From assembly GCA_963839305.1 (NCBI GenBank), contig CAWIUL010000011.1, forward strand, positions 2,249,561-2,313,560: 64,000 bases of DNA, in the 5' to 3' direction. Within the stretch, counting starts at the first letter, position 1. Every line of letters begins with the position of its first letter. Below are positions 22,278-46,368 of the stretch, in pieces. Source of the DNA: an uncultured delta proteobacterium (GTDB taxonomy: Bacteria; Myxococcota_A; Polyangia; Polyangiales; Polyangiaceae). Position numbers and translations under genes: made by a program. Under the pieces are notes generated by a model. The model searched no databases. It worked only from the letters and a program-made list of their open reading frames with translations, and was not told the origin of the DNA.

Positions 22278-22507
22278 GAGGTCTTCTACGTACGAGGCGG
22301 CACAAATCATCTCTCGGTGTGACGTTCAGGCGGGGAGTATTTTTTTGTGGAGGGCCAATCTCTCGGTGGCCTGAGCTGCCGTCAATGATGGTGAGAACAA
22401 GTTCTTTGCGATGAATCGTTTACGCGCGCGGGCCGGGGCACGGGCTCACGTCCTGCGAGCGTGCCCGATGCGCATGCTGAAGACATTCAGAGCGCGGGGG
22501 TGACAAC

Positions 22508-22852
22508 TCAGTACGCGCAATAGAACCCGTTTGTGAGCCCGCCATCGCCGAAGTCAGTGAGGAACTGGCAATGGAAGAACGAGCAGCCGCCGGCTTTGTT
22601 GCAGTTGATGCCGCATGCTCCGCAATTCTCATTGTCGCTGAGCTTCGTGCATGTGCCATGTTGCGGATCACCGCAGCACGTTTCGCTGCAACACGACCCT
22701 CCACAGCAGTTTTGGTTGGGTCCACATTGTTCGTTGGACGTGCAGCCAGAGCATGCGGTGAGCGTCGATACGACCCGCAACGGCGAGCTGCCGGTCACGA
22801 CAAACACCACAATGAGCGTCGCGACGCCGACTGGCCCACGGCTGCGAAGCAT
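22508..22852 (-). CDS. small secreted cysteine-rich protein (22 Cys in ~75-aa mature part)
   Basis: Hydrophobic N-terminus VATLIVVFVV..STLTAC, then CSGCTSNEQCGPNQNCCGGSCCSETCCGDPQHGTCTKLSDNENCGACGINCNKAGGCSFFHCQF... Flanked by AT-richer non-coding DNA. Confidence 0.5.
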   Translation of the reverse strand: MLRSRGPVGVATLIVVFVVTGSSPLRVVSTLTACSGCTSNEQCGPNQNCCGGSCCSETCCGDPQHGTCTKLSDNENCGACGINCNKAGGCSFFHCQFLTDFGDGGLTNGFYCAY

Positions 22853-23138
22853 TCTGAACGTAGCTTAGCACCCGGTCTAAGGGCTCCAGTACCAAGCCGA
22901 ATCCCGTGTGCGACGGGAGCGCGAACGATGGTCCAACGAAGTTCACCGCACTCTTCACGAGCAGCCGCGAAACTTGATTCGGCAGTAATTCATGTGGCGC
23001 GTTTCGACTCCAGTGAACGCCACATTCGACCCACTCAACCGAAGTGCCGTGTGAGCCCGGCCCGTCAGGGCTGGGCTTACTGCTCCTTTCGCCCAGGCGT
23101 GTGCAAACCGCCACTGCGCTCCGCTGATCTCTCCATGG

Positions 23139-23158
23139 CCCCGGACTTCAGTCCGGGG
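23139..23158. terminator. GC hairpin ccccggac-ttca-gtccgggg immediately downstream of the minus-strand ABC-2 operon
   Basis: Perfect 8-bp stem with 4-nt loop, 50 nt after the stop at 23208. No clear U-tract. Confidence 0.25.
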
Positions 23159-23207
23159 TCACCCCACCACCCATTCTGATCTTCCCGATCTCCCTGTTCA
23201 TTCTCTC

Positions 23208-33700: not shown

Positions 33701-34618
33701 ATGCACAAGCTCGGGCTAGCGCTCTTGTTGGTCGTGGGGTGCGGCGGCGGGACGGCGCAAAACGCTCCGCCGACGGTCGCCGTGCCCGTCCCCGATGGTC
33801 ACGTCCGCATCGTCGTCGGCGGTGACTCGCGTGACGACAGCGCGCACGTGCTCCCGTGGGCGTTTCGCGAAGCGAAGGCGCGCGGCGCGAGCGCGTTCCT
33901 CTTCCTCGGCGACATGGAGCTCACGCCCTCGTTCGACGCGCACTTCCGAAACGAGCTCGACGGCCTCGGCACGGTCTCGTTCTATCCCGTGCTCGGCAAC
34001 CACGAGGTGAAGCTCATCGGGTTCTTCAACCTCGGCGCCGAGGCCGCGCACAGGAGCTTCCGCGCGCACTTCCTCGAGAACGCGCGGACGCCCGTGCGGA
34101 GCACGCTCCGAGGCAAGATCGCGTACTCCGTGAACCTCCCCGGCCACGTCCATTTCGTCGCGCTCGACAACGTGAGCCAGGCCGGCTTCGGCGACGACCA
34201 GCTCGCGTGGCTCAAACGCGATCTCGACGAGGCGCGCTTCGACGCGAACGTGCGCCACATCTTCGTCGGCATGCACAAACCGCTCGCGCACAACGGCGTC
34301 TCGACGCACGGCATGGACGAAGACGGCGCGCGCGGCGAGAAGGACTCCGCCGCCGCGCTCGCGATGTTCCAAGAGGCGCACGTCGAGCTGATCCTCGCGA
34401 GCCACGTCCACCAGTTCATCCGCTTCTACCAAGGCGGCATCCGCAGCTACATCACCGGCGGCCTCGGCGCGCCGCTCAACAAGGCAACGCTCGATCACGC
34501 GTTCCACCACTTCCTCGTCGTCGACGTCGCGGGCGACGCGGTCGACGTGAACCTCGTGCGCTTCGATGGAACCCCGAGCGTGGAGCCGGACAACGTCGTG
34601 GAAGATCCGGGGGATTGA
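33701..34618 (+). CDS. metallophosphoesterase (calcineurin-like) lipoprotein
   Basis: Lipobox LLLVVGCGG. Motifs GDSRDD, FLGDMEL, GNHE, ..HVH. Confidence 0.8.
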   Translation: MHKLGLALLLVVGCGGGTAQNAPPTVAVPVPDGHVRIVVGGDSRDDSAHVLPWAFREAKARGASAFLFLGDMELTPSFDAHFRNELDGLGTVSFYPVLGNHEVKLIGFFNLGAEAAHRSFRAHFLENARTPVRSTLRGKIAYSVNLPGHVHFVALDNVSQAGFGDDQLAWLKRDLDEARFDANVRHIFVGMHKPLAHNGVSTHGMDEDGARGEKDSAAALAMFQEAHVELILASHVHQFIRFYQGGIRSYITGGLGAPLNKATLDHAFHHFLVVDVAGDAVDVNLVRFDGTPSVEPDNVVEDPGD

Positions 34619-34638
34619 TTTTTTTGTGCCCCCTCCCA

Positions 34639-34674
34639 GCCGTGCTCGGGCTCGTGCTCGGCCGTGCTCGCCGC
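34639..34674. repeat. left copy of 35-bp inverted repeat (gccgtgctcgggctcgtgctcggccgtgctcgccg)
   Basis: Reverse complement of 35893..35927 with one mismatch. Confidence 0.8.
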
Positions 34675-34972
34675 CAGTGCGCGGCGCTACACCACACTTC
34701 GGCTGCGCGCGGCTCTGCGCGCGAGCCCTGCGCGCGGCTGCCTCCCCCACGGCGTCGCTCCGCGCCGCCGGGGGAGGTGGGTACGGGAGGGATTGGGCCA
34801 CGACCTTGTAGCGATTCGTGATCGTGATCGGTGTCGAGTCCTGCTTCGCTCACGAGGACGAGCACGAATCCGCGAAGTCACAGCGTGAATCGGTAACCCA
34901 ACTCCACGCCTACGACGGGGCGCTTCGCTTCCGCGCGGGTATGCCAAGCTGAAAGATCAAATTCTCGTGCTC

Positions 34973-34992
34973 GATTCTCGTGCTCGTGCCTC
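34973..34992. repeat. direct repeat ctcgtgctcgtgcctcgtgc (copy 1), immediately 3' of gene 35001..35885
   Basis: Identical 20-mer also at 35862..35881. Confidence 0.8.
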
Positions 34993-35000
34993 GTGCTCGC

Positions 35001-35885
35001 CTACTGCCAATCGATCGTCGCGTTGTCGTATCGGATGCTCCACGCGCCCGTCGTCGGGTGGCCCGTGTAACCCGTCCCCACGCTGACGCGCACGGGGCCG
35101 GGCGCGTAGAGGTTCGATTCCAACGGTTGCTGCGCGGCGGGCTGGCCGTCGAGGGTGACCGTCAGCATGTGCGTCGAGCTCGCGAGATCGACGTCGACCT
35201 CCACGCGCGTCCACGCGTCGAAGCGTGACGTGCCAGAGAGCGGGACATCGTGCGAGGGAACGCCGCCGTCGGCGAGGTACGCCTCGCTCGTGATCGTGCT
35301 CGCCCCCGCGGTGTTGTAGACGCGCAGGTAGAAACCGAACTCGAGCCCGGGCGTGAAGAAATGGATGTAGTTGATCTCGGCGTAGCCGACGGCCGTGTCG
35401 CGCGCGTCGATGCGCATGTCGTACGCCGCGTGGACCTTGCTCTTCGTCGTGGTCGCCTCGAGGTAGACGGTGGCCTGAACGGACGACGACGAAGCGGGCG
35501 ACAGCGCGAGCAGCGCGTTGGGCGACGAACGAAACGCGCTCGTGTCGCGGCTCACGGATCCGCCGTTGCTCGTGAGCGTGTTCGTCCAGCGCGAGAAGAA
35601 ACCTTGATCGTCGAAGTCGTCGCAAAACATCGGCGCGGGCACGAGCGAATCGCACCACCGCCCGCCATCCGCGGCGTCCGCGGCGTCCGCCGCCGGCGCA
35701 TCCAAAACGGTTGGCGCATCCGAAGCGTCCGCAACCGAGCCGTCCGCGGTGCTCGCCCGAGAGCCCATCGAGCGACGGAAAGAGCCCGCACCGAACCACG
35801 ACGAGCGTCGCGAAGAGAAGCGATGCGCGGACGACCCTCGCCATGCCCCGATGCTACCCCAGCCTCGTGCTCGTGCCTCGTGCAC
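35001..35885 (-). CDS. hypothetical secreted protein (possible frameshift near 35760-35790 separating a signal peptide in another frame)
   Basis: Frame A encodes a beta-rich domain: ..WCDSLVPAPMFCDDFDD...YLRVYNTAG...WSIRYDNATIDWQ. Frame B (ORF 34957..35844) starts MARVVRASLLFATLVVVRCGLFPS, which is signal-peptide-like. Repeats bracket the gene at both ends. Confidence 0.45.
   Translation of the reverse strand: MHEARARGWGSIGAWRGSSAHRFSSRRSSWFGAGSFRRSMGSRASTADGSVADASDAPTVLDAPAADAADAADGGRWCDSLVPAPMFCDDFDDQGFFSRWTNTLTSNGGSVSRDTSAFRSSPNALLALSPASSSSVQATVYLEATTTKSKVHAAYDMRIDARDTAVGYAEINYIHFFTPGLEFGFYLRVYNTAGASTITSEAYLADGGVPSHDVPLSGTSRFDAWTRVEVDVDLASSTHMLTVTLDGQPAAQQPLESNLYAPGPVRVSVGTGYTGHPTTGAWSIRYDNATIDWQ
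35862..35881. repeat. direct repeat ctcgtgctcgtgcctcgtgc (copy 2) overlapping the first codons of gene 35001..35885
   Basis: Identical to 34973..34992. Confidence 0.8.
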
Positions 35886-35892
35886 TCAGTTG

Positions 35893-35927
35893 CCGGCGAG
35901 CACGGCCGAGCACCAGCCCGAGCACGG
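35893..35927. repeat. right copy of 35-bp inverted repeat
   Basis: gagcacggccgagcaccagcccgagcacggc is the reverse complement of 34639..34674, with 34/35 identical. Confidence 0.8.
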
Positions 35928-35936
35928 CCAAATGAC

Positions 35937-36770
35937 TTATTTCGCGCAGCGAATCCCGACCACCACGCTGCGATCGGTGATCAGGTTCCCGTTGCGCGTC
36001 GCGACCGCGGCGGTCTTCTCGGTGTACCAGCCGGCGCCGCGGTACATGCGGTACGTGCTCGGGCACTGGTGCTGCGGGTACGTGCAGTACGGGCTCGAGG
36101 TCCACTCGTAGACGTTGCCGGCGATGTCGAGGATCCCGAACGGCGACGCGCCGCGTGGATACGAGCCGACGGGCGACGTCTCGGGGTACCCGTCGCTCCC
36201 GGGGTACATCGCGTGCTTCACCTCGGGCGTCGGGAGCGACGCGGCGTACGAGACGCACTCGTCTCCGCACGCGTTGAGCAGGTGCGCGTTCGGCGGCTGG
36301 TTTCCCCACGGATACTTGCGCCCGTCGCTGCCGCGCGCGGCGTACTCCCACTCGGGCTCGGTCGGCAGGCGCGCGCCGATGTAGTTGCAGTACGTCATCG
36401 CCTGGTTCCAATCGACGCAGTTGATCGGGTGGTTCGCGCGGTTGACGTGCTGCGAGTTGCACTGCGACTCGGTGCCCGTGGGCGTGCAGCTTCCGGCGTT
36501 GATGCACGCCTCGTACTCCGCGACCGTGACCTCGAGGCGCTGCATGCAGAAGCCGGGGAGCGTGAGCGCGTGCTGCGGGTGCTCGTCGGCGTCTCCGTCG
36601 CCGAAGGGCGAGCCCATCATGAACGTGCCCGATGGGACGCGCACGAAGCCGGGCGGGCAGCTCGACGCGATGATGCCGTCGGCGTGGGCCTCGGGCGCGT
36701 GGCCGCGAAGCGCGACCGAGCCAGCGATGATTCCGATCCCCACAGCGAAGAGTTTTCTAGCCCGCGGCAT
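35937..36770 (-). CDS. formylglycine-generating enzyme (FGE/SUMF1)-family protein with signal peptide
   Basis: ..MGSPFGDGDADEHPQH..., EWEYAARG, GNVYEWT, RGGSW-like ..RGAGWY... Confidence 0.8.
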   Translation of the reverse strand: MPRARKLFAVGIGIIAGSVALRGHAPEAHADGIIASSCPPGFVRVPSGTFMMGSPFGDGDADEHPQHALTLPGFCMQRLEVTVAEYEACINAGSCTPTGTESQCNSQHVNRANHPINCVDWNQAMTYCNYIGARLPTEPEWEYAARGSDGRKYPWGNQPPNAHLLNACGDECVSYAASLPTPEVKHAMYPGSDGYPETSPVGSYPRGASPFGILDIAGNVYEWTSSPYCTYPQHQCPSTYRMYRGAGWYTEKTAAVATRNGNLITDRSVVVGIRCAK

Positions 36771-36831
36771 GAGGCCAAAACTATCGAACGACATCGCGGA
36801 CGGCTACGTAATCTTGGGCGCGGACCTTCCC

Positions 36832-38874
36832 TTATTTCAGATTGACCCCGTAGATCGTCGCGTCGCTCTGGCGCAGCTCGACGAAGTGGTTCGCGGGGAC
36901 GTTCGTCCACACGTCCTTCGAGAGCGCCTGGTTCGGCCAGCGCACCTCGATCTTGTCGACCGCGCCGCACGCGCCGAGGCCGAAGAAGAGCACGCCCGGG
37001 TCATCGCTCTCCGAGCCGATTCCGTGCTGCGCGATCATCTGCTGCGTCTGCGTGACGCCGTTCACCGTCACCGAGACCGTCGCGCCGAGGCCGAGCTTGT
37101 TCGTCGCGCCGTCCTGCGAGGCGAGTCGCACCTCGAGCCAGTGGCCGTTCTGCGACGCGTTGTTCGTGAAGATGTGGACCTCGGGGACCTTGTAGCCCGC
37201 GAAGCCCGGGTCCTTGTCTGCGATCGGCTTCCACCCCGTCGCGCAGTCGCGGAACAAGCTGCCGCGCACGATGACGTCGAGGTCGCCGTCGCGATCGTAG
37301 TCGGCGACCGCGAGACCATCCATGCACGGGAAGATCAAACCCCACTGCTGCGCGAGATCCTGGAACGTGCCATCCGTCTGCTGGATGAAGAGGTGACCGT
37401 ACTGGTACGCGTAGTCGCTCCCGCCGTTGAGCACGTCGACGCGGCCGTCGTTGTCCATGTCGACGAGCGACGTCTGCTGGATGCCTTCGTTCCACCCCTG
37501 CGGATCGAGGTGCGGATAGACGATGCCGCTGGTCTGGCTGTCGACGCGCTGGAGCGTGATGTCGCCGCCCGGCGTCGTCTTGTTGAGGAGGATCTGCGGC
37601 GGGTCCGTGGCGTTGCCCGCCCACCAGTGGCGGATGGTGCCCTGGAAGACGTCCGGCTTGCCGTCGCCGTCGATGTCGCGGCACGCGGCGGAGAAGTTAT
37701 TTCCGTTCGCGAGCGCCGGCGCGTCGCTGTAGCCGACGAACCACTGGCTGTCGGCGGGCGCCGGGCACATCACCGCGGGCTTCCCCGCGCCCGCGCAGTA
37801 CGCGTCCGCCGAGTGGAGGGTGCAGTAACAGAGGTAGTATTGGTTGTCTTTGTAGTCGACGATGGTGTCGCCGTCGAAGCCGCCGGGCTGGGGCGTGCGC
37901 GTGAAGCTCCCGGTGCCGTCGTTCTTGTAGAGGAGGTTCGACTGCCCGCCGTACGAGCTCACGAGGAGCTCGGGGTAACCGTCGCCGTCGAGATCGCACG
38001 CGGTCGCGCCGAACGACGGGCGCGAGCTCGTCCCGGCGAGGAGGCTCGCGTTCGTGCCCGTGTTGACCATCTGGAGGCCCGCGGCCTGCGTGATCGACGC
38101 GAACGTGCCGTCGCCGTTTCCGTGAAAGAGCTGCTGCTGCGAGCCGATCGCCGACGTGTTCGTATTTTTGTACCAATACGTGAGGAGCAGATCGAGCGAG
38201 CCGTCGTTGTCGATGTCCGTGTAGACCGCTTGATAACCGGACGACTCGAGGATGCCGCTCGGGTCCGACTGCGGCGCGAACGTGAAGTGGCCGTGGCCGT
38301 CGTTGAGCATGACCTCGTTGCGATCGAGGTTGAACGACGAGGTCTTGTCGGTGTTGTTCGGGTCGGGGTTGATGCCCGTGTAGACGTCGATGTTGCCGTC
38401 GCCGTTGACGTCCGCGAACGACGCGAGCGCCGCCATGCGGTACTCGGTCGTCGAGCCGTCGCGCGTCTGGAAGATGCCGCTCTCCTGGGTCGCGTCGACG
38501 AACGTGCGACCGCCGCCCGGCGCGGGTCGGTTCATGAGCACGAGCACGTCGGGCGACGTGCTGCCGACGGTGCCGCGCTTGTTCTGCGCGCCCGAGAGGA
38601 GCACGACGTCGGGGTAGCCGTCGTGATCGAGGTCGACCGAGTAGAAACCTCCGAGCGCGACGTTCGTGAGGCCGAACGCGGCGGTCGCGTCGGTGAACTG
38701 CGAGGGCGCGCTCGCGTGCGAGTCGCACGTGCCCGCCGTGACGGGCGCGAGCACCGTCAGCGTGTAGTTGCCTTCGTCGACGACGGTGCCCGGCGTGGGG
38801 CCGACCGGCGGCGGAGGCGCGCTGCTGCAACCAAGGGCAAGGATCGAAGCGAGGGCGGTGCGGCTGACGTGCAT
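36832..38874 (-). CDS. FG-GAP repeat / ASPIC-UnbV (CRTAC1-like) lipoprotein
   Basis: Lipobox ILALGC. Repeated DxDGDG / DxDxDG Ca-binding FG-GAP loops (DLDHDGYPD, DVNGDGNID, DIDNDGSLD, DLDGDGYPE, DIDGDGKPD, DMDNDGRVD, DYDRDGDLD). C-terminal UnbV_ASPIC-like region. Confidence 0.8.
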   Translation of the reverse strand: MHVSRTALASILALGCSSAPPPPVGPTPGTVVDEGNYTLTVLAPVTAGTCDSHASAPSQFTDATAAFGLTNVALGGFYSVDLDHDGYPDVVLLSGAQNKRGTVGSTSPDVLVLMNRPAPGGGRTFVDATQESGIFQTRDGSTTEYRMAALASFADVNGDGNIDVYTGINPDPNNTDKTSSFNLDRNEVMLNDGHGHFTFAPQSDPSGILESSGYQAVYTDIDNDGSLDLLLTYWYKNTNTSAIGSQQQLFHGNGDGTFASITQAAGLQMVNTGTNASLLAGTSSRPSFGATACDLDGDGYPELLVSSYGGQSNLLYKNDGTGSFTRTPQPGGFDGDTIVDYKDNQYYLCYCTLHSADAYCAGAGKPAVMCPAPADSQWFVGYSDAPALANGNNFSAACRDIDGDGKPDVFQGTIRHWWAGNATDPPQILLNKTTPGGDITLQRVDSQTSGIVYPHLDPQGWNEGIQQTSLVDMDNDGRVDVLNGGSDYAYQYGHLFIQQTDGTFQDLAQQWGLIFPCMDGLAVADYDRDGDLDVIVRGSLFRDCATGWKPIADKDPGFAGYKVPEVHIFTNNASQNGHWLEVRLASQDGATNKLGLGATVSVTVNGVTQTQQMIAQHGIGSESDDPGVLFFGLGACGAVDKIEVRWPNQALSKDVWTNVPANHFVELRQSDATIYGVNLK

Positions 38875-38909
38875 GATTCTATGTATTCCGAGGTCGGCGC
38901 CGAGGGTCG

Positions 38910-41809
38910 TTACACCGCGTTACTTGCGGTGGAAGCGTCGCAGACGAGCGTGAACGGCTCGTCTCCGAGCTCGTACGACGAGCCACCGAGGATGACGCGC
39001 TCGGGCTTTTTCGGGTCGCTTTCGACGAGCGCGCGGAGGCGGTGCAGCGTGACGCGGATGCGCGTGCCGTCGTTGAGCGGGTGGAAGTTCTTCCGCTGCC
39101 AGACCTCGCGCGCGAGGTCCTCGAACGACGCCGAGCCGTCGTGACGCGCGAGGACCTCGAGCACCTTCGCGAGGAGCGCGTGTCGCGCGAACGAGACGCG
39201 CGTTCCGTCGGGGAGCCACACCGCGCGGCGTCGCGCGTCGAGACCCCAGCCGCGTCGCGGCGCCTTCGAGACGCGAGCGCGCACCACGTCCACGCCGTCT
39301 CTCGCCGCCGCGAGGAGGCGCTCGTCGATCGCATCGAGCGGAGCCGCGCGGTCTCCGAGGATGGCCTTGGCGCGGCGCGCGGCGGTCGGCGAGACGTCCT
39401 CGGCGAAGGCGGCCTCCTCGAGCACGGCGAGATCGAGGCGCGGCTCGTCGAACAGCGCGACGAGCACGCGCGACTCCAAATCGAAGCGCGCCGAGGTCAT
39501 CGACGCGGCGCGCTTGCCGATGGCGCGGGCCTCCGAGAGCGCGTCGCGCGTGTGGCCCGCGACGAACAGCGCGCCCGCGAGGAGCTCGCGCGACTCGCAC
39601 TCGCGCACGCCCCAGCCGTGCGTCTGCGCGAGATCGACCGCGCGCCGCGCGTGCGTGATCGCCACGGACGCGCCTCCGCCCGCGAGCAGCGCGTCGGTTG
39701 CGAGCACGATTTCGCGCACGATCGAGCCCTCGATGTCGATCGCGTCGGGCACGTCGTGTGGCAAGCCGAAGCGCGCGTGGCGAAGGGCGCGGCGAAGCGC
39801 GAGGAGGCTCCGCGCGACAGAGCCGACGGGCGACCCGTCGAGATCGAGCGGCTCGTCGCCGCGGCTGGCGCGGACGAGATCGAGCCGCTCGTTCGTATCG
39901 AGGCACCACGCGTGGACGAGCGCGTTCTGCGCGCGCGTGTCGACCATGAGCTGCTCGAGATCGCGCGGGACGTCACGGAACGCTCCCGCCGCGACGCGCC
40001 GCTCGATGTCGAGCAGGCGCGCGATCGTGTGGTACGTGGATACTCCGCCGACGGGAGTCGCCCGCAACAGCCTCGAAAGGATTCGCTCGGCTTCGTCGAG
40101 CTTGCCGCGCGCGATCGAGAGGTTCGCGATGCCATCGAGCTGCACGTACGACGCGCGGAGGTGATCGTCGACGTCGAGGTCGTCGCGACCCGCGGTGAGC
40201 TCGTCGTGCGCGCGATCGAGGTGGCCGCACTCCATGAACGCGGCCATGCGGTAGTAGCGCACGAAGAAGTCGAGCGGCCCGCCGAGGATCTCGTCCGCGA
40301 GGGCGGTCTCGAGCGGCGCGCGTCGACCGTGTCCGGTGCGCTCGAGCGTGCGCACGGAGTCGTCGATGCGCCCGACCTCCGCGAGCCAGAACGCCGACAG
40401 CGCGACGACGAGCGCGCGTGTCCCGTCGTCGATCGGCTCCGCGGCCTCGAGGAGCGCGAGGCCTCGCGCGGGCCCCGCGTGGACGCGCGCGGCCATCGCG
40501 TGCTCGACCGCCGCCCAGAAGGCGATGCGCGAATCGCCGCTCTTCGCCGCGGCCAGGCAGAGCTTCTCGGCGGCCTTCACGGCCTCTGCGCCGCGCGACT
40601 CGACGAAGAGCGCGCGCACCCAGAGCAGCCGATCGCGGAGCGCGCTCGCCGGGGGCTCGTCGAGGAGCGTCGTGATCTTGATGTCCGCGAGCTGCATCGC
40701 AACGCGCAGCTTGTACGTGCTCCACGCGGCGCCCTCGCGCGTCGCGACGAGCTTCCACAGCGCGCTCGCGTGACCCGCGCGGAGCATCGCGTCGAACGAG
40801 GTCTCGCAGACCGCGAGCGCGCGCTTTTCGTCCTTCGTCTTGAGCGCGAGCCGGAGGCCCTCGAGCGCGTCCGCGTCGCCGCCCGCCGCGAGCGCCGCGA
40901 TCGTGCGGCCGCTCTCGGGCGAGGCCTCGTCGGCGTACGTGTCGACGAGCGGGCGCGCGGCCTCGTGGATGCGATACCCGCCCGCGACGGCTTCGACGAG
41001 CCCGCGGCGCACGAGGTCCGCCACGAGCGCGCGGACGTCCGCGTCGACCGTGCCGGCGAGGGCGCCGCCCGAGATGGGCCGCTCGACCGACGAGAGCGCC
41101 GCGAGGAGCGTCTTTCCCGTCTCGCCGACGTGCTCGCTGCGACCCACGATTTCGCGCACCTTCCACGGCGAGCCCGCGGCTTCCTTGGCGACGCGCGCGG
41201 CCTCGGCGCTCGTGAGCTTCCGATCGACGAGCTTCGCGAGCGACGCGAGGTGCTTCTCGGATAGCGGAACGAGCCGGATGATCTGCCCATCGAGCTCCTT
41301 GGGTATTCGCGACGTCCCGCCGGCGGCGGAATCCGTCGACCGCGGTCGGCGCTTCGCGGCTCGTCGCGAGCCACGAGGCCCGCCGCGCGTAACGCGCGAC
41401 CGCGACGAGCAGCGACGTCGCCTCGGGGAGCGCGTGGTGGATGTCGTCGAGCACGACGAGCGCGCGCTCGGCCTCCGCGAGGTCGATCGCGAGCATCGGC
41501 AAATCCGAGCCTTCGCGCGGCGCCACGTGGCCGAGCGCGCGCACGACGTCGACGAGCGTCTGCGAGAACGGCTCGTTGGGACGCACGCTCACCATCACGG
41601 CTCGAGACGCACGCTTGCCGAAGACGTCGCGCACCGCGGCCGACGCGAGCGCGGTCTTTCCGAGGCCGCCCGCTGCCGCAGAGCACGACGACGGGCCCGC
41701 GCTTCGCCGCCGCGGCGATCGCCTTCATCTCGTCGCGACGTCCGACGAACGTCGCGGGCGCGTTCGGAACGCGAAACGCGAGCGGAACGGCACGTGTCTT
41801 CGCGGACAT
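38910..41809 (-). CDS. P-loop NTPase (STAND-like) regulator with C-terminal OmpR/PhoB-type winged-helix domain; Walker A disrupted by apparent +1 frameshift near 41645
   Basis: The N-terminus MSAKTRAVPLAFRVPNAPATFVGRRDEMKAIAAAAKRGPVVVLCGSG.. changes frame into GGLGKTALASAAVRDVFGKR..LVVLDDIHH... (ORF 39973..41634 frame). Both frames join ORF 38910..41159, whose C-terminus ..VWQRKNFHPLNDGTRIRVTLHRLRALVESDPKKPERVILGGSSYELG.. resembles trans_reg_C. Confidence 0.6.
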
Positions 41810-41859
41810 GTAACGCAGTGTAACGACCTACGGGCCGCGGCGCGCGCTATCCGAACGTC

Positions 41860-42297
41860 ATGGCATTTCGCAGCTTCGCGCACTGGTCGGGCCGCTCCGA
41901 GGCGGCGCCTGCGCGCCGCGTGGTGTCGCGGCTCTGCTGCATCGGCGCGCTCTCGCCGTCCGACGTCGACGATCTGCGCCGAATGAGCGATCTCCGCGAT
42001 CTCACGCTCGAGGGCATCGAGACGTTCCCGCGCGCGCTCTGCGATCTCGTTCAGCTCCGTTCGCTCACGATCAACCGGCGCGGCGAGGATGGCGTGGCCG
42101 AGCTTCCGAGCGACATCGACAAGCTCGTCGCGCTCCGCACGCTGCGCGTCCGCGCCAAGCGCCTCGAGTCGCTGCCGGACTCGATCGCGGACCTCGACGC
42201 GTTGGTCGAGCTCGACCTCCGCCACAGCGGCGTTCAGCGCTTGCCGGCGCGCTTGATGGAGGTCCCGCGTCTACGGCGGATCTACGTCGCCCGCTAA
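41860..42297 (+). CDS. leucine-rich repeat (LRR) protein, small
   Basis: Tandem LxxLxxLxL repeats: ..LRSLTINRRGEDGVAELPSDIDKLVALRTLRVRAKRLESLPDSIADLDALVELDLRHSGVQRLPARL... Confidence 0.55.
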   Translation: MAFRSFAHWSGRSEAAPARRVVSRLCCIGALSPSDVDDLRRMSDLRDLTLEGIETFPRALCDLVQLRSLTINRRGEDGVAELPSDIDKLVALRTLRVRAKRLESLPDSIADLDALVELDLRHSGVQRLPARLMEVPRLRRIYVAR

Positions 42298-42323
42298 CCC
42301 TTCTTCTCGCGTAAAATGAAGCC

Positions 42324-42917
42324 GTGCGACCCCGAGCGCGTGACGCGACGCTGGCAGGCGCGGTCCTCGCGGCCGTGGCTGCGTCGTCGTGCTGCATCGG
42401 TCCGCTCGTCGTGGCCGCGCTCGGGATCGGCGGAGCCGGCGCATTCGCGGCGCTCGCCGCTTACCGTCCCTACGTCCTTGGTGCGACGGCGTCGCTCCTC
42501 GCGCTCGGATTTCATCTGACCTATCGCGCGCCGCGTGCGGCGGACGCGTGCGGCTGCCAACGACCACGGGCGAACCGCGCGGGCCGCATCGGGCTGTGGC
42601 TCGCGACGGCGCTCGTGGCGGGGCTCGCCGCTTCACCGACGCTCTTGGCGGCGATCTCCGCTCGACGGCCCGTCCCCGCAGCGGCCGGCGCCGAGCTCTC
42701 GCACGCGGTCCTCTTGGTGCGAGGGGTCGATTGTCAGGCGTGCGCGATGCCCATTCGCAGAGCGCTGACGAACGTCGGAGGTTTGCACGATGTCACGCTC
42801 GACGTGAGCGCACGAACCGTCGGCGTGACGTACGAGCCCGCTCGCGGCAGGCTCGACGCGTACGTCGCCGCGATCGACGCGCTCGGTTACGAAGCGAGCC
42901 TCGAGAGCTCGTTCTAG
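42324..42917 (+). CDS. merT: MerT-like heavy-metal transporter fused to C-terminal HMA (MerP-like) domain
   Basis: GTG start. TM1 ..AAVAASSCCIGPLVVAALG.. matches the MerT CC motif. C-terminal ..VRGVDCQACAMPIRRAL..VTLDVSARTVGVTYEP.. is an HMA fold with a CxxC pair. Confidence 0.75.
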   Translation: MRPRARDATLAGAVLAAVAASSCCIGPLVVAALGIGGAGAFAALAAYRPYVLGATASLLALGFHLTYRAPRAADACGCQRPRANRAGRIGLWLATALVAGLAASPTLLAAISARRPVPAAAGAELSHAVLLVRGVDCQACAMPIRRALTNVGGLHDVTLDVSARTVGVTYEPARGRLDAYVAAIDALGYEASLESSF

Positions 42918-44488
42918 ATCCCGAAGACGTCACCGTTGGCGTCGACGCCGATCGATTCTGCCCCTGGTTTTTCGGGCAATCCTGGCATCGTGAGCACGTG
43001 GCCCGCGAGCGCGAGCACGTAGCCCGCGCCCGCGTAGAGGCGCACGTCGTCGATCGGAAACGTGAAGCCCTCGGGGCGGTTCACGAGCTTGGGATCGTGG
43101 CTGAGCGACGCAGGCGTCTTCGCGATGCACACGGGGAGCGCGCCGAAGCCGCGTGCCTCGAGCGCGGCGAGCTTGCGCTGCGCGACCTCGCCGAGGTCGA
43201 CGCTCGCGGCCCCGTAGACGCGCGTCGCGACGGTCTCGAGCTTGCGACGCAGGTCCCACGCGAGCTCGTAGATCGGGATCGCCGGCTTCGCGATCGCGAG
43301 CGCGTCGAGCACCGCGCGCGCGAGCGCCTCGCCTCCCGCGCCGCCCTTTTCGTGGACCTCCGAGCGCGCGGTGGGAACGCCGATCGCGCGCGCGCAGTCG
43401 TCGAGCGCGGCGAGCTCGCTCGCGGAGTCGTCGCCGAAGACGTTGATCGCGATGACCGGCGTCACGCCGAAGAGCCGCGCGTTCTCGACGTGCTTCTCGA
43501 CGTTGCGGAACCCCACGCGCACGTCGCCCGCGCCGTGGAAACGGACGGCGCGCGTCGTCACGACGATCACGGCGACCTCGGGCGCGAAGCCCGCGTCGCG
43601 GCATTTCAAATCGACGAGCTTCTCGAGCCCGCAGTCCGTGCCGAAGCCCGCTTCGGTCACGACGACGTCCGCGTGCGCGAGCGCGACGCGATCGGCCACC
43701 ACCGACGAGTTTCCCGTCGCGACGTTCGCGAACGGTCCCGTGTGCACGAGCACCGCGTTGCCCTCGAGGGTCTGGACGACGTTCGGCGCGATCGCGTCGC
43801 GCAAGAGCGCCGCCATCGCGCCGTGCGCGTGAAGCTCGGCCGCGGTCACGAAGCTCGCGTCTTCTCTCGCGCGCGCTCCGACGACCGTGCGCGCGAGGCG
43901 CTGCTCGAGGTCTTCGAGATCGCGCGCGAGCGACAGCGTCGACATCGTCTCGCAGGCGGCCACGATGTCGAACGCGCCCTCGCGCGCGAGCTTCGTCCCC
44001 GCGTTCAGCACGATGCGGCGGAGAGCGCGGTCGTCCATGTCGATCGCGCGGCCGCACCAGACGTCGGCGATCCCGAGCGCGTTCTGGTGGAACACGTGGT
44101 TGTCGGTCATCGCCGCGAGGAGGTTCTGCGCCGCAGCGACCGCGTGAAAATCCCCCGTGAAGTGCAGGTTGATCTCGTCGCTCGGCACCATGCGCGCGAG
44201 ACCCGAGCCCGTCGCGCCGCCCTTCAAGCCGAAGATGGGTCCGAGCGAGGGCTGCCTCAGCGTCGCGAGCGCGCGCGTCCCGAGCCGCGCGAGCGCGTCC
44301 GTGAGCCCGAGCGCGGTCACGGTCTTCCCTTCCCCGTGCGGCGTCGGGTTGATCGACGTGACGCAGACGAGCCGCCCGCGCGCCGCTCCCGCCTCCGCGC
44401 CGCGGATCTTGGCCTTGAAGCGCCCGAGCGCCTCGACGCGATCGCGCGGGAAACCCGCGCTTTCAGCGACGTCTACGATCGGACGCAT
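42914..44488 (-). CDS. fhs: formate--tetrahydrofolate ligase
   Basis: ..MRPIVDVAESAGF..RFKAKI..VTSINPTPHGEGKTVTALGL.. (FTHFS P-loop PTPAGEGKTT). 524 aa. Confidence 0.9.
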   Translation of the reverse strand: MRPIVDVAESAGFPRDRVEALGRFKAKIRGAEAGAARGRLVCVTSINPTPHGEGKTVTALGLTDALARLGTRALATLRQPSLGPIFGLKGGATGSGLARMVPSDEINLHFTGDFHAVAAAQNLLAAMTDNHVFHQNALGIADVWCGRAIDMDDRALRRIVLNAGTKLAREGAFDIVAACETMSTLSLARDLEDLEQRLARTVVGARAREDASFVTAAELHAHGAMAALLRDAIAPNVVQTLEGNAVLVHTGPFANVATGNSSVVADRVALAHADVVVTEAGFGTDCGLEKLVDLKCRDAGFAPEVAVIVVTTRAVRFHGAGDVRVGFRNVEKHVENARLFGVTPVIAINVFGDDSASELAALDDCARAIGVPTARSEVHEKGGAGGEALARAVLDALAIAKPAIPIYELAWDLRRKLETVATRVYGAASVDLGEVAQRKLAALEARGFGALPVCIAKTPASLSHDPKLVNRPEGFTFPIDDVRLYAGAGYVLALAGHVLTMPGLPEKPGAESIGVDANGDVFGI

Positions 44489-44494
44489 GAGGAA

Positions 44495-44570
44495 TGGTGG
44501 GCGAACCGGGACTTGAACCCGGAGCCAACGGATTAAGAGTCCGCTGCTCTACCAATTGAGCTATTCGCCC
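44495..44570 (-). tRNA. tRNA-Lys (anticodon CTT)
   Basis: The reverse complement folds as a cloverleaf. Acceptor GGGCGAA/TTCGCCC, D-arm GCTC..GAGC, anticodon stem GCGGA/TCCGT with loop CTCTTAA, T-arm CCGGG-TTCAAGT-CCCGG. Discriminator A and an encoded CCA. 76 nt. Confidence 0.85.
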
Positions 44571-44652
44571 TGGAACGCCGCGTAGTTATATGTCGCTCGA
44601 AGCCCTGTCAAGCGACGCAGGATGATGACGGCCCGGCTAAGGTGAATCTGAC

Positions 44653-45366
44653 GTGAAGACGACCAGGCAAGCGGTGATTCTCGCGGGCGGGTTGGCGACG
44701 CGCATGCGCCCGCGAACGCTGACCATTCCGAAGCTCCTGCTCGAGGTGCAGACGAAGGACGGGCCGCGCCCATTCGCCGATTTGCAGCTCGAATTGCTTG
44801 CACAGTGCAAGTATCAGAGCGTCGTGATGTGCGTCGCGCACCTCGCCGATCAGGTTCGCGCGTACGTCGGAGACGGCAAACGCTGGGGTCTCGACGTCGA
44901 GTACTCGGACGAAGGAAAAGAGCTCCTCGGCACCGGCGGCGCGCTCCGCATGGCCGCCCCGCGCCTCGAGGACACGTTCCTCGTGACGTACGGCGACAGC
45001 TATTTGCCCTTCGATTACGCCGCACCGCTCGACGTGCTGCGCGCCCACGACGACTGCGACGGCGTCATGAGCGTCTTCGCGAACGCGGGGCTGTGGGACG
45101 CGTCCAACGTCCGCACCGACGGGACCTGGGTCCTCGCGTACGAGAAGGGGACGAAGGATCCGGCGTTCGACCACATCGACTACGGCGCGATCGCGCTCCG
45201 CAAGTCGACCACGCTCGAGCTCCCCGAACGGCAGCGCTGCGGCTTGGATGAGCTCCAAGCGAAGCTCGCCGCACGCGGCCGCTTGCGGGCGTGGGTCGCG
45301 CGTGAGAGGTTCTACGAGATTGGCTCTCCGGAGGGACTCGCCGCGCTCGAGCAGCGGCTTTCGTAA
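44653..45366 (+). CDS. sugar-phosphate nucleotidyltransferase (HddC/GmhD-like heptose-1-P NTase candidate)
   Basis: GTG start. ..AVILAGGLATRMRP.. NTP_transferase motif. 237 aa. Confidence 0.8.
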   Translation: MKTTRQAVILAGGLATRMRPRTLTIPKLLLEVQTKDGPRPFADLQLELLAQCKYQSVVMCVAHLADQVRAYVGDGKRWGLDVEYSDEGKELLGTGGALRMAAPRLEDTFLVTYGDSYLPFDYAAPLDVLRAHDDCDGVMSVFANAGLWDASNVRTDGTWVLAYEKGTKDPAFDHIDYGAIALRKSTTLELPERQRCGLDELQAKLAARGRLRAWVARERFYEIGSPEGLAALEQRLS

Positions 45367-45372
45367 CACCCC

Positions 45373-46368
45373 ATGATCGTCTCACGCGCTCCTGTTCGCT
45401 TTTCTTTGGGTGGTGGCGGCACCGACCTGCCGACGTATTCGCGAGAGCACGGCGGCTTCCTCGTCGCCGCGGCGATCGACAAGTACGTCAACCTCTGCGT
45501 CGCGCCACGCTTCCAGAACAACATCCGACTCGCGTACTCGAAGACCGAGCTCGTCGACTCGGTCGACCAAATCGAGCACCGCATCTTCCGCGAGGCGATG
45601 CGGTTCGTCGGCACGACGAACCCGATGGAGCTCCACAGCCTGGCGGACGTGCCGTCGAACACCGGGCTCGGATCGTCGTCGTCGTTCACGGTCGCGCTCA
45701 TCAACGGCCTCCACGCGTTCAAGCGCGAGTTCGTCGGCACCGAGCAGCTCGCGCACGAGGCCTGCCACATCGAGATCGACATCCTGAAGGAGCCGATCGG
45801 CAAGCAGGACCAGTACATCGCCGCGTACGGCGGGATCACCGCGTTCACGTTCGAGAAGGACGGCTCGGTCCACGCCGAGCGCCTGCCCGTGAAGGACGAC
45901 GTCATCGACGAGCTCGAGTCGAGCCTCCTCATCTTCTACTCGGGCGTCGAGCGCTCGGCGTCGGCGGTCCTCAGCGAGCAAGCCAAGACGGTGAAGGCGA
46001 ACAAGGACGACGCCGTCGCGCGCATGCACCGCATCAAAGAGATGGGCTACGAGACGAAGAAGCTCCTCCTCGAGGGCAACGTCGACCTCTACGGCGAGCT
46101 GCTCCACGAGCACTGGATGAACAAGCGGAAGCTCGCCGCCAACATGACCGACTCGGCCATCGACGAGCACTACGAGGCCGCGCGCAAGGCGGGAGCCATC
46201 GGCGGCAAGCTCATGGGCGCGGGCGGCGGCGGATTCTTCATGTTCTACGCGCGCGCGACCGAGCGCCGCAAAGTGTACGACACGCTCGTCAGCCGCGGTC
46301 TACGCCCCATGCGCTTCCGCTTCGATTTCGACGGCGCGCGCATCCTGGCTAATTTCCATCGTTCTTAG
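45373..46368 (+). CDS. GHMP-family sugar kinase (HddA-like D-glycero-D-manno-heptose-7-P kinase candidate)
   Basis: MIVSRAPVRFSLGGGGTDLP.. then GHMP motif ..PSNTGLGSSSS... Confidence 0.85.
   Translation: MIVSRAPVRFSLGGGGTDLPTYSREHGGFLVAAAIDKYVNLCVAPRFQNNIRLAYSKTELVDSVDQIEHRIFREAMRFVGTTNPMELHSLADVPSNTGLGSSSSFTVALINGLHAFKREFVGTEQLAHEACHIEIDILKEPIGKQDQYIAAYGGITAFTFEKDGSVHAERLPVKDDVIDELESSLLIFYSGVERSASAVLSEQAKTVKANKDDAVARMHRIKEMGYETKKLLLEGNVDLYGELLHEHWMNKRKLAANMTDSAIDEHYEAARKAGAIGGKLMGAGGGGFFMFYARATERRKVYDTLVSRGLRPMRFRFDFDGARILANFHRS

What the first reader, a model, noticed from the sequence alone, without database searches (positions are those of the whole stretch)
34620..35935. Gene precisely bracketed by 20-bp direct repeats and an outer 35-bp inverted repeat (cassette/MITE-like structure)
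Seen in sequence:
- gccgtgctcgggctcgtgctcggccgtgctcgccg at 34639-34674 is the reverse complement (34/35 identical) of 35893-35927.
- Inside these, ctcgtgctcgtgcctcgtgc occurs at 34973-34992 (8 nt after the stop of gene 35001-35885) and at 35862-35881, where it actually encodes the first codons (MHEARARG) of the same gene.
- The intervening 300-bp spacer (34675-34972) is non-coding and contains GC hairpins (cctccccc..gggggagg).

This geometry resembles a mobile cassette or MITE-like insertion carrying a secreted-protein gene, or a recombination/inversion (shufflon-like) site.
Basis: seen in the sequence. Interest (0 to 1): 0.55.

Follow-up and report, generated by a model that had tools for sequence, protein, structure and literature searches.

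The report
Inverted-repeat-bounded gene insert in variable slot
A 1.3-kb stretch carrying one decaying lipoprotein gene lies exactly between the stop codons of two conserved convergent genes and is bounded by a 38-base inverted repeat. Close relatives have this slot empty, filled with other genes, or holding part of the insert the other way round, so it is a small variable and probably flippable segment, not a proven mobile element.

Summary
The repeats are real. The inverted repeat (IR) is 34639-34676 / 35891-35928, 36 of 38 bases, and is by far the best IR in the 64-kb window.

The gene starts at ATG 35844, so DR copy C is in the leader rather than in codons. The gene also carries a 1-nt frameshift near 35742-35749.

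All repeat blocks are built from the heptamer GTGCTCG.

Relatives (uncultured Polyangiaceae) show that window 34619-35936 is an indel lying exactly between the stops of a metallophosphoesterase gene and an FGE-sulfatase gene. The slot is empty in L139, holds other genes in L141/L143, and holds a DUF1963 gene next to a homolog of arm A in L142. In L144 (93% identical flank) the T-run, GC box, arm and spacer follow the FGE-sulfatase gene instead of the metallophosphoesterase gene, which is the opposite orientation.

There is no target-site duplication, no attC core, no transposase or recombinase domain in the genes scanned, and no further copy in the sequence held. Copy number in the source genome could not be measured.

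Best reading (confidence about 0.45): an IR-bounded insert in a hypervariable slot that has flipped by recombination between its arms. Rivals are a passenger-carrying non-autonomous transposon and plain local duplication.

The parts
33701..34618 (+). Flank gene 1: metallophosphoesterase lipoprotein, conserved in relatives. Its stop TGA (34616-34618) is the left edge of the insert.
   Evidence: Pfam Metallophos. Orthologs at 78-92% aa in L139-L142. Homology to relatives ends at the stop codon.
34619..34638 (+). T7 run plus GC box (TTTTTTTGTGCCCCCTCCCA), directly after the stop codon. This is the outer part of the end module.
   Evidence: The same T7-8 plus GC box follows the gene 1 stop in L142 and the gene 3 stop in L144. 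It is one of only two T7 runs in the window.
34639..34676 (+). IR arm A: GCC-GTGCTCG-GGCTC-GTGCTCG-GCC-GTGCTCG-CCGCCA.
   Evidence: Homologs in L142 and L144. Does not fold on its own (z +0.6).
34677..34963 (.). Non-coding spacer. It contains a 12-mer repeated three times (CTGCGCGCGGCT, 34703-34739), a GC hairpin at 34737-34781, and a small IR at 34813-34830 / 34853-34870 made of the same CGTGCTCG-type motif.
   Evidence: Homologous to L144 760-971. No Rfam hit.
34964..34999 (+). Block B: three GTGCTCG heptamers at 13-nt spacing, a diverged direct copy of the arm. It contains DR copy 34977-34996 and ends 2 nt from the gene 2 stop codon.
   Evidence: In the predicted fold it pairs with 34850-34870.
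35001..35844 (-). Cargo gene 2: lipoprotein with a ConA-like beta-jelly-roll domain. It has a 1-nt insertion near 35742-35749, which is either a pseudogene mutation or a sequencing error.
   Evidence: gene model and frameshift. AlphaFold2 model, pLDDT 84. Foldseek best hits PL20, GH16 and PL7. No Pfam family.
35864..35883 (+). Block C: 20/20 direct copy of the end of block B, in the 5' leader of gene 2.
35891..35928 (-). IR arm D: 36/38 reverse complement of arm A, 8 nt after the stop of gene 3.
35937..36794 (-). Flank gene 3: FGE-sulfatase family protein, conserved in relatives. Its stop (35937-35939) is the right edge of the insert.
   Evidence: Pfam FGE-sulfatase. Orthologs in L139, L141, L143, L144 and L145.

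Best explanation
Window 34619-35936 is a lineage-specific insert that fills the zero-length gap between two convergent conserved genes, a metallophosphoesterase gene (gene 1) and an FGE-sulfatase gene (gene 3). This gap is a hypervariable slot in uncultured Polyangiaceae.

The two ends of the insert are inverted copies of one short non-coding module: a T-run, a GC box, and three GTGCTCG heptamers spaced about one helical turn apart. The interior holds a structured spacer and one lipoprotein gene that looks to be decaying. Blocks B and C and the small inner IR are further, degraded copies of the same heptamer motif.

Shown: the indel and its exact borders; the different contents of the slot in relatives; the arm homologs next to either flanking gene; and the opposite placement of the spacer in L144.

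Inferred: the interior has been turned round by recombination between the inverted arms, either RecA-type or by an unidentified site-specific enzyme. The same exchange (gene conversion) would keep the two arms of one genome more alike (95%) than orthologous arms of relatives (80-86%). Flipping would move the cargo gene from downstream of gene 3 to downstream of gene 1.
For: - Borders. Homology to L139 and L141 stops exactly at both stop codons. In L139 the two stops overlap (CTAA) with nothing between them.
- Other slot contents. L141/L143 carry a CAP-domain gene plus an 80-aa gene. L142 has T7, GC box and arm, then a DUF1963 gene. L140 has no gene 3. The P0002 contig has the same gene order as the window.
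- Orientation. In L144 the gene 3 stop is followed by T8, GC box, arm and a spacer homolog. Identity is 74% over 262 columns; alignment score 149 against 12.6 +/- 7 for shuffles. In the window that series follows gene 1.
- Arm similarity. A vs D is 36/38. The module is 86% identical between window and L142 and 80% between window and L144, while the adjacent coding sequence is 90.5% and 93% identical.
- The IR stands far above the window background, and heptamer clusters occur only at this locus.
Against: - Both orientations were seen only between lineages, on one 971-nt contig (L144) that ends before any gene 2. Nothing shows flipping within a population.
- In L144 the T-run and GC box lie on the gene 3 side, whereas the window's gene 3 side has only GTCATTTG. 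A simple exchange inside the 38-nt arms therefore does not give the L144 state, unless the IR once included the T-run and GC box on both sides.
- The L144 arm is degenerate: its third heptamer is lost.
- No recombinase domain was found in the 15 genes scanned between 23 and 48 kb.
- 38 bp is short for homologous recombination.
- No functional consequence of flipping has been demonstrated.
Confidence: 0.45

Rival explanations
1. A non-autonomous transposon carrying a passenger gene (mobile insertion cassette, or oversized MITE). The 38-bp arms are terminal inverted repeats bound by a transposase encoded elsewhere. The element has entered the same permissive site in either orientation in different lineages.
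For: - Terminal IR of 38 nt.
- Presence/absence and orientation differences at one site.
- Without gene 2 and one DR copy, the element would be about 400 bp, which is MITE-sized (from the sequence).
- The cargo family occurs in unrelated contexts elsewhere.
Against: - No target-site duplication beyond CA.
- No second copy in the 64-kb window or in about 1 Mb of fetched loci.
- No transposase domain in the 15 genes scanned between 23 and 48 kb.
- In L142 an arm homolog adjoins a different cargo gene, and more distant gene 2 homologs have no such repeats.
- The arms are three direct heptamers, unlike the transposase-binding ends I know of (own knowledge).
Confidence: 0.2
2. No mobility mechanism tied to the repeats. 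The heptamer blocks are fast-evolving local duplications (slippage, template switching, gene conversion) in 3'-flanking DNA of a plastic region. The IR is a by-product. The slot varies by ordinary illegitimate or homologous recombination in the flanking genes. Any function would be structural, either at mRNA 3' ends or as protein-binding sites.
For: - The spacer is full of short tandem repeats: a 12-mer three times, a 13-mer three times, and the heptamers.
- (CTCGTG)n hexamer arrays are common in unrelated GC-rich genomes.
- The spacer folds better than shuffles (z -2.9 and -3.9), and the hairpin is kept in L144.
- The wider region also differs in gene content between relatives.
- The heptamers are not conserved in L142 or L144.
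Against: - Slippage does not make a 38-nt inverted copy 1.2 kb away with the same internal spacers.
- It does not explain why the T-run, GC box, arm and spacer series sits on the opposite flank in L144.
- The arms themselves do not fold, and no terminator-like site is present.
Confidence: 0.25
3. A site-specific cassette slot. The end modules are recombination sites for a dedicated recombinase encoded elsewhere, which inserts, swaps and flips single-gene cassettes. This would be comparable in logic to integron attC or Xer-dependent dif modules.
For: - Several different cargos occupy one slot in genomes whose flanks are 87-95% identical.
- An arm homolog lies next to a different cargo in L142.
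- The junctions are tight, at the stop codons.
Against: - No attC core sites.
- The arms are not built as 11-6-11 Xer-type sites (from the sequence).
- No integrase domain in the genes scanned.
- Slot states without any arm also exist (L139, L141/L143, L145).
Confidence: 0.1

Closest known systems
Mobile insertion cassettes (MICs) and passenger-carrying MITEs, for example the Tn3-family MICs of Xanthomonas (PMC4337579) and IS231-related MICs of Bacillus cereus (PMC6542083)
   Same: One or a few passenger genes and no transposase, bounded by terminal inverted repeats of a few tens of bp. Presence/absence polymorphism.
   Different: Here there is no target-site duplication, no known matching IS element, and no second copy found. 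The arms are three direct heptamers, and an arm homolog is linked to the flanking gene with another cargo in L142.
Invertible DNA segments (invertons, shufflons)
   Same: Inverted repeats flank a segment that is found in both orientations.
   Different: Known systems have a dedicated recombinase, usually adjacent, and switch a promoter or gene ends within a population (own knowledge). Here no recombinase was found, both orientations are seen only between lineages, and no expression switch is evident.
Xer-dependent dif modules of Acinetobacter plasmids (own knowledge)
   Same: Single-gene modules without their own recombinase, bounded by inverted sites and found in different contexts and orientations.
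   Different: The arms lack the 11-6-11 XerC/XerD site architecture. The context is chromosomal, in Polyangiaceae.
Chromosomal integration hotspots between conserved core genes (own knowledge)
   Same: The same pair of conserved genes brackets different accessory genes in close relatives.
   Different: Hotspots are usually kilobases long and linked to integrases or tRNA genes. Here the slot is the zero-length junction of two overlapping stop codons, and one state has IR ends.

Membership tests
MITE / mobile insertion cassette | Terminal inverted repeats | tested here: met
   38 nt, 36/38; the best IR in the window.
MITE / mobile insertion cassette | Target-site duplication flanking the IRs | tested here: not met
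   Only a CA dinucleotide is shared. None at the inter-stop borders.
MITE / mobile insertion cassette | Multiple dispersed copies in the genome | tested here: inconclusive
   No other copy in the 64-kb window or in the fetched loci.
MITE / mobile insertion cassette | Ends matching an autonomous element or transposase | not testable with these tools
   No transposase domain in the 15 genes scanned between 23 and 48 kb. The rest of the 3.65-Mb contig was not available.
Invertible segment (inverton / shufflon) | Segment observed in both orientations | tested here: inconclusive
   The spacer and end module are on the gene 1 side in the window and on the gene 3 side in L144. This is between lineages only; L144 ends after 268 nt, and there is no read-level evidence.
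Invertible segment (inverton / shufflon) | Site-specific recombinase encoded nearby | tested here: not met
   Pfam scan of 15 genes between 23 and 48 kb found none.
Integron gene cassette | attC site with RYYYAAC / GTTRRRY cores, and an intI gene | tested here: not met
   No GTTRRRY at either border, one stray RYYYAAC at 34896. No integrase.
Xer dif module | 28-bp sites made of two 11-nt arms around a 6-nt centre | tested here: not met
   The arms are three direct heptamers with 5-nt and 3-nt spacers and no dyad symmetry.
REP / BIME elements | Palindromic unit that folds into a hairpin | tested here: not met
   The arms fold no better than shuffles (z +0.6 and +0.2).
Intrinsic terminator | GC hairpin followed by a U run | tested here: not met
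   No site in 34300-36300. The T7 run precedes the structured part rather than following it.

The most novel reading that the evidence does not exclude
The short end module (T-run, GC box, three GTGCTCG heptamers) is the recognition site of an undescribed recombination system in Polyangiaceae. That system would capture, exchange and flip single-gene cassettes exactly at the abutting stop codons of convergent genes, alternately attaching the cargo to one or the other flanking transcription unit.
Probability: 0.1. Interest if true: 0.75.

Novelty: new variant of a known kind. Interest (0 to 1): 0.4.

Why it matters
If the arms really drive flipping or exchange of cargo, this would be a very small cassette slot, sitting at overlapping stop codons and encoding no enzyme of its own. 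It would lie in a group of large-genome, uncultured myxobacteria whose mechanisms of gene turnover are hardly known. It would also give a concrete site to test with long reads.

If the arms do not drive anything, the locus is simply a clear example of how fast accessory genes turn over between two conserved genes, and of within-genome homogenisation of short repeats.

Tried and rejected
- Genome-wide copy number. It returned mostly (CTCGTG)n hexamer arrays in unrelated GC-rich taxa, and the source genome was not among the 120 loci. This pattern was too loose, and the question stays open.
- Source contig. Exact look-ups of window proteins and of P0001 found nothing.
- The closest syntenic relative (the P0002/P0143 contig) has no DNA available, and the metagenome scan did not return it.
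- More distant gene 2 homolog loci (L001-L018) have neither the repeats nor the synteny.
- The roughly 70-nt direct repeat around the homolog in L001 turned out to be the N-termini of small tandem paralog genes, not a target duplication.
- Known RNA families: none. Promoter-like or terminator-like sites: none.
- Coding remnant in the spacer: tblastx gave only compositional noise. A 45-aa ORF at 34818-34952 is not conserved in L144.
- The C/D hairpin as a terminator: z is only -1.6.
- Similar DNA in plasmids, phages or IMG/VR: two hits of about 45 nt inside Burkholderia regulator genes in plasmids, none in phages or IMG/VR.
- Retron, retroposition, sigma-54 promoter and response-regulator box readings were considered from the sequence and dropped. 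There is no reverse transcriptase and no TSD, the GG-GC spacing is wrong, and the heptamers are not conserved in relatives.

Full report
**Observation.**
- The inverted repeat exists. Its arms are 34639-34676 and 35891-35928, 38 nt, 36 of 38 complementary, 1214 nt apart.
- In a scan of the whole window for IRs up to 6 kb apart, it is the only pair above 85%.
- The 20-nt direct repeat is exact, but lies at 34977-34996 and 35864-35883. A third, 3-mismatch copy lies at 34964-34983. That is 3 matches against 0.10 expected.
- All blocks are built from one heptamer, GTGCTCG. Each IR arm has three copies (spacing 12 and 10 nt). Block B (34964-34999) has three copies at 13-nt spacing. Block C is a partial copy. 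The small inner IR at 34813-34830 / 34853-34870 uses the same motif.
- Clusters of the heptamer occur nowhere else in the 64 kb.

**Gene model.**
Homologs start MARV...(lipobox Cys)...LFPSLDGLSGE. In the window this is read from ATG 35844, in a different frame from the rest of the ORF.
- ATG 35844 to the stop at 35001 is 844 nt. Deleting one base near 35742-35749 gives a 280-aa protein 85% identical to P0002. The gene is therefore frameshifted, either as a pseudogene or through a sequencing error, and DR copy C is in its leader.
- The protein has no Pfam family.
- An AlphaFold2 model built from 21 homologs (first sequence P0002; pLDDT 84) is a ConA-like jelly roll. Its nearest structural matches are PL20, GH16 and PL7 enzymes.
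- Its composition is native-like (GC3 0.88).

**Position of the arms.**
- Each arm lies just after a stop codon and in the same orientation relative to the gene it follows.
- Gene 1 is a metallophosphoesterase gene on the + strand. Its stop at 34618 is followed by T7, a GC box, and then arm A.
- Gene 3 is an FGE-sulfatase gene on the - strand. Its stop at 35937 is followed by GTCATTTG and then arm D.

**Relatives.** They are uncultured Polyangiaceae, going by the source names of homologs.

| Locus | Relation to window | What lies in the slot |
|---|---|---|
| L139 | gene 1 80% aa | Stops of gene 1 and gene 3 overlap (CTAA); nothing between |
| L141 and L143 (one lineage) | gene 1 86% aa; gene 3 89% nt | A CAP-domain gene and an 80-aa gene, with no non-coding DNA and no arm |
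| L140 | gene 1 78% aa | Gene 3 absent |
| L145 | gene 3 82% aa | Unrelated sequence after the stop |
| P0002/P0143 contig | gene 3 96% aa; gene 2 81% (85% after frameshift correction) | Same order as the window, with gaps of 191 and 454 nt; DNA could not be read |
| L142 | gene 1 90.5% nt | TGA, T7, GC box, an arm homolog (GTGCTCG, GTACTCG, ATGCTCG), then a different cargo, a DUF1963 gene |
| L144 | gene 3 93% nt | TAG, T8, GC box, a degenerate arm, then a homolog of the window's spacer including the CCTCCCC...GGGGAGG hairpin |

- Alignments show that homology between the window and L139/L141 stops exactly at both stop codons. Window 34619-35936 (1318 nt) is therefore an indel.
- For L144, the match to the window's spacer is 74% identity over 262 columns, with alignment score 149 against 12.6 +/- 7 for shuffles.
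- In the window that series follows gene 1. In L144 it follows gene 3. The segment therefore exists in opposite orientation relative to the flanks.

**Arm similarity.**
- The two arms of the window are 95% alike.
- The orthologous modules are 86% (L142) and 80% (L144) identical to the window's, although the adjacent coding DNA is 90.5% and 93% identical.
- This points to recent duplication, or to continuing exchange between the two arms of one genome.

**What it is not.**
- No target-site duplication beyond CA, and no attC cores.
- The arms do not fold (z +0.6 and +0.2), and there is no terminator-like or sigma-70-like site.
- No Rfam family.
- No transposase or recombinase domain among 15 genes scanned between 23 and 48 kb.
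- No further copy of the module in the window or in any fetched locus, by nhmmer.
- Nothing similar in IMG/VR or phages, and only two hits of about 45 nt inside Burkholderia regulator genes in plasmids.
- More distant homologs of the cargo gene sit in unrelated contexts without these repeats.

**Interpretation.**
- Best supported: an IR-bounded insert in a hypervariable slot between two convergent genes, whose interior has been turned round by recombination between its inverted end modules. Gene conversion would keep the arms alike. Blocks B and C are decayed copies of the same motif, and the cargo gene may be decaying.
- Shown: the indel, its borders, the alternative slot contents, and the opposite placement in L144.
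- Inferred: the recombination mechanism, and any consequence for expression. Flipping would move gene 2 from downstream of gene 3 to downstream of gene 1.
- Weak points: L144 is a single 971-nt contig. In the window the T-run and GC box are missing on the gene 3 side. No enzyme was found.
- Rivals: a passenger-carrying non-autonomous transposon inserted in either orientation (0.2), local duplication in fast-evolving 3'-flank DNA with no repeat-driven mobility (0.25), and a dedicated site-specific cassette system (0.1).

**Limits.**
My one genome-contig scan used a pattern that was too permissive. It was swamped by hexamer microsatellites and did not reach the source genome.

**Verdict.**
- The structure is real, and it is more than chance.
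- The mobile or invertible reading is partly supported by comparative evidence, but membership in any named family fails or is untestable.
- Interest is moderate (0.4). It is a new variant of known kinds: an IR-bounded cassette or invertible segment.

Noticed in passing
window 35742-35749: The cargo gene has a 1-nt insertion relative to all homologs. The public annotation calls only a 255-aa product (P0001) starting at an internal Met. The lipobox is also atypical (VVVRC, against VGVGC in P0002). This is either pseudogenisation or an assembly error.
   Followed up: yes
window 22309-22369 and 22311-23207: The only other T7 run in the window (22340-22346) is also followed by GTG. It sits between two exact 11-nt direct repeats, ATCTCTCGGTG (22309 and 22358), at the edge of a lower-GC island (59.6% against 68.8%). 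The island carries a small Cys-rich secreted-protein ORF (22508-22852, - strand). It may be another small insertion.
   Followed up: partly
L001 9359-10925: The 70%-identical homolog of the cargo gene sits inside a tandem array of small paralogous genes (87-89 aa). A truncated third copy of their N-terminal region lies just after the homolog, which gives an apparent 63-75-nt direct repeat around it.
   Followed up: partly
L139 8831-8834; L141 1053-1056 and 2010-2015: In relatives the convergent genes of this slot are packed with zero intergenic bases. Their stop codons overlap as CTAA or CTAG, or abut as TGA-TTA.
   Followed up: no
L139 8831-9600: The FGE-sulfatase ortholog is split into a 90-aa call and an opposite-strand shadow call. 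This suggests a frameshift or pseudogene in that relative.
   Followed up: no
L111 1-125, L093 1583-1664, L090 109-190 and others: Long pure (CTCGTG)n hexamer tandem arrays occur in many unrelated GC-rich genomes (Actinomycetota, Planctomycetota, Myxococcota). I did not check whether they are coding.
   Followed up: no
window 34703-34739: A tandem 12-mer, CTGCGCGCGGCT, repeated three times (middle copy CTGCGCGCGAGC) inside the spacer. Only the last unit is conserved in L144.
   Followed up: no
window 33701-46368 compared with L139 and L140: The whole stretch between the metallophosphoesterase gene and the NTP-transferase/GHMP-kinase pair differs in gene content between relatives. The window has FG-GAP, LRR, MerT-HMA and FTHFS genes. 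L139 has a peptidase S8 and a phosphodiesterase. L140 has a phosphodiesterase, a Fapy glycosylase and a MORN protein.
   Followed up: partly
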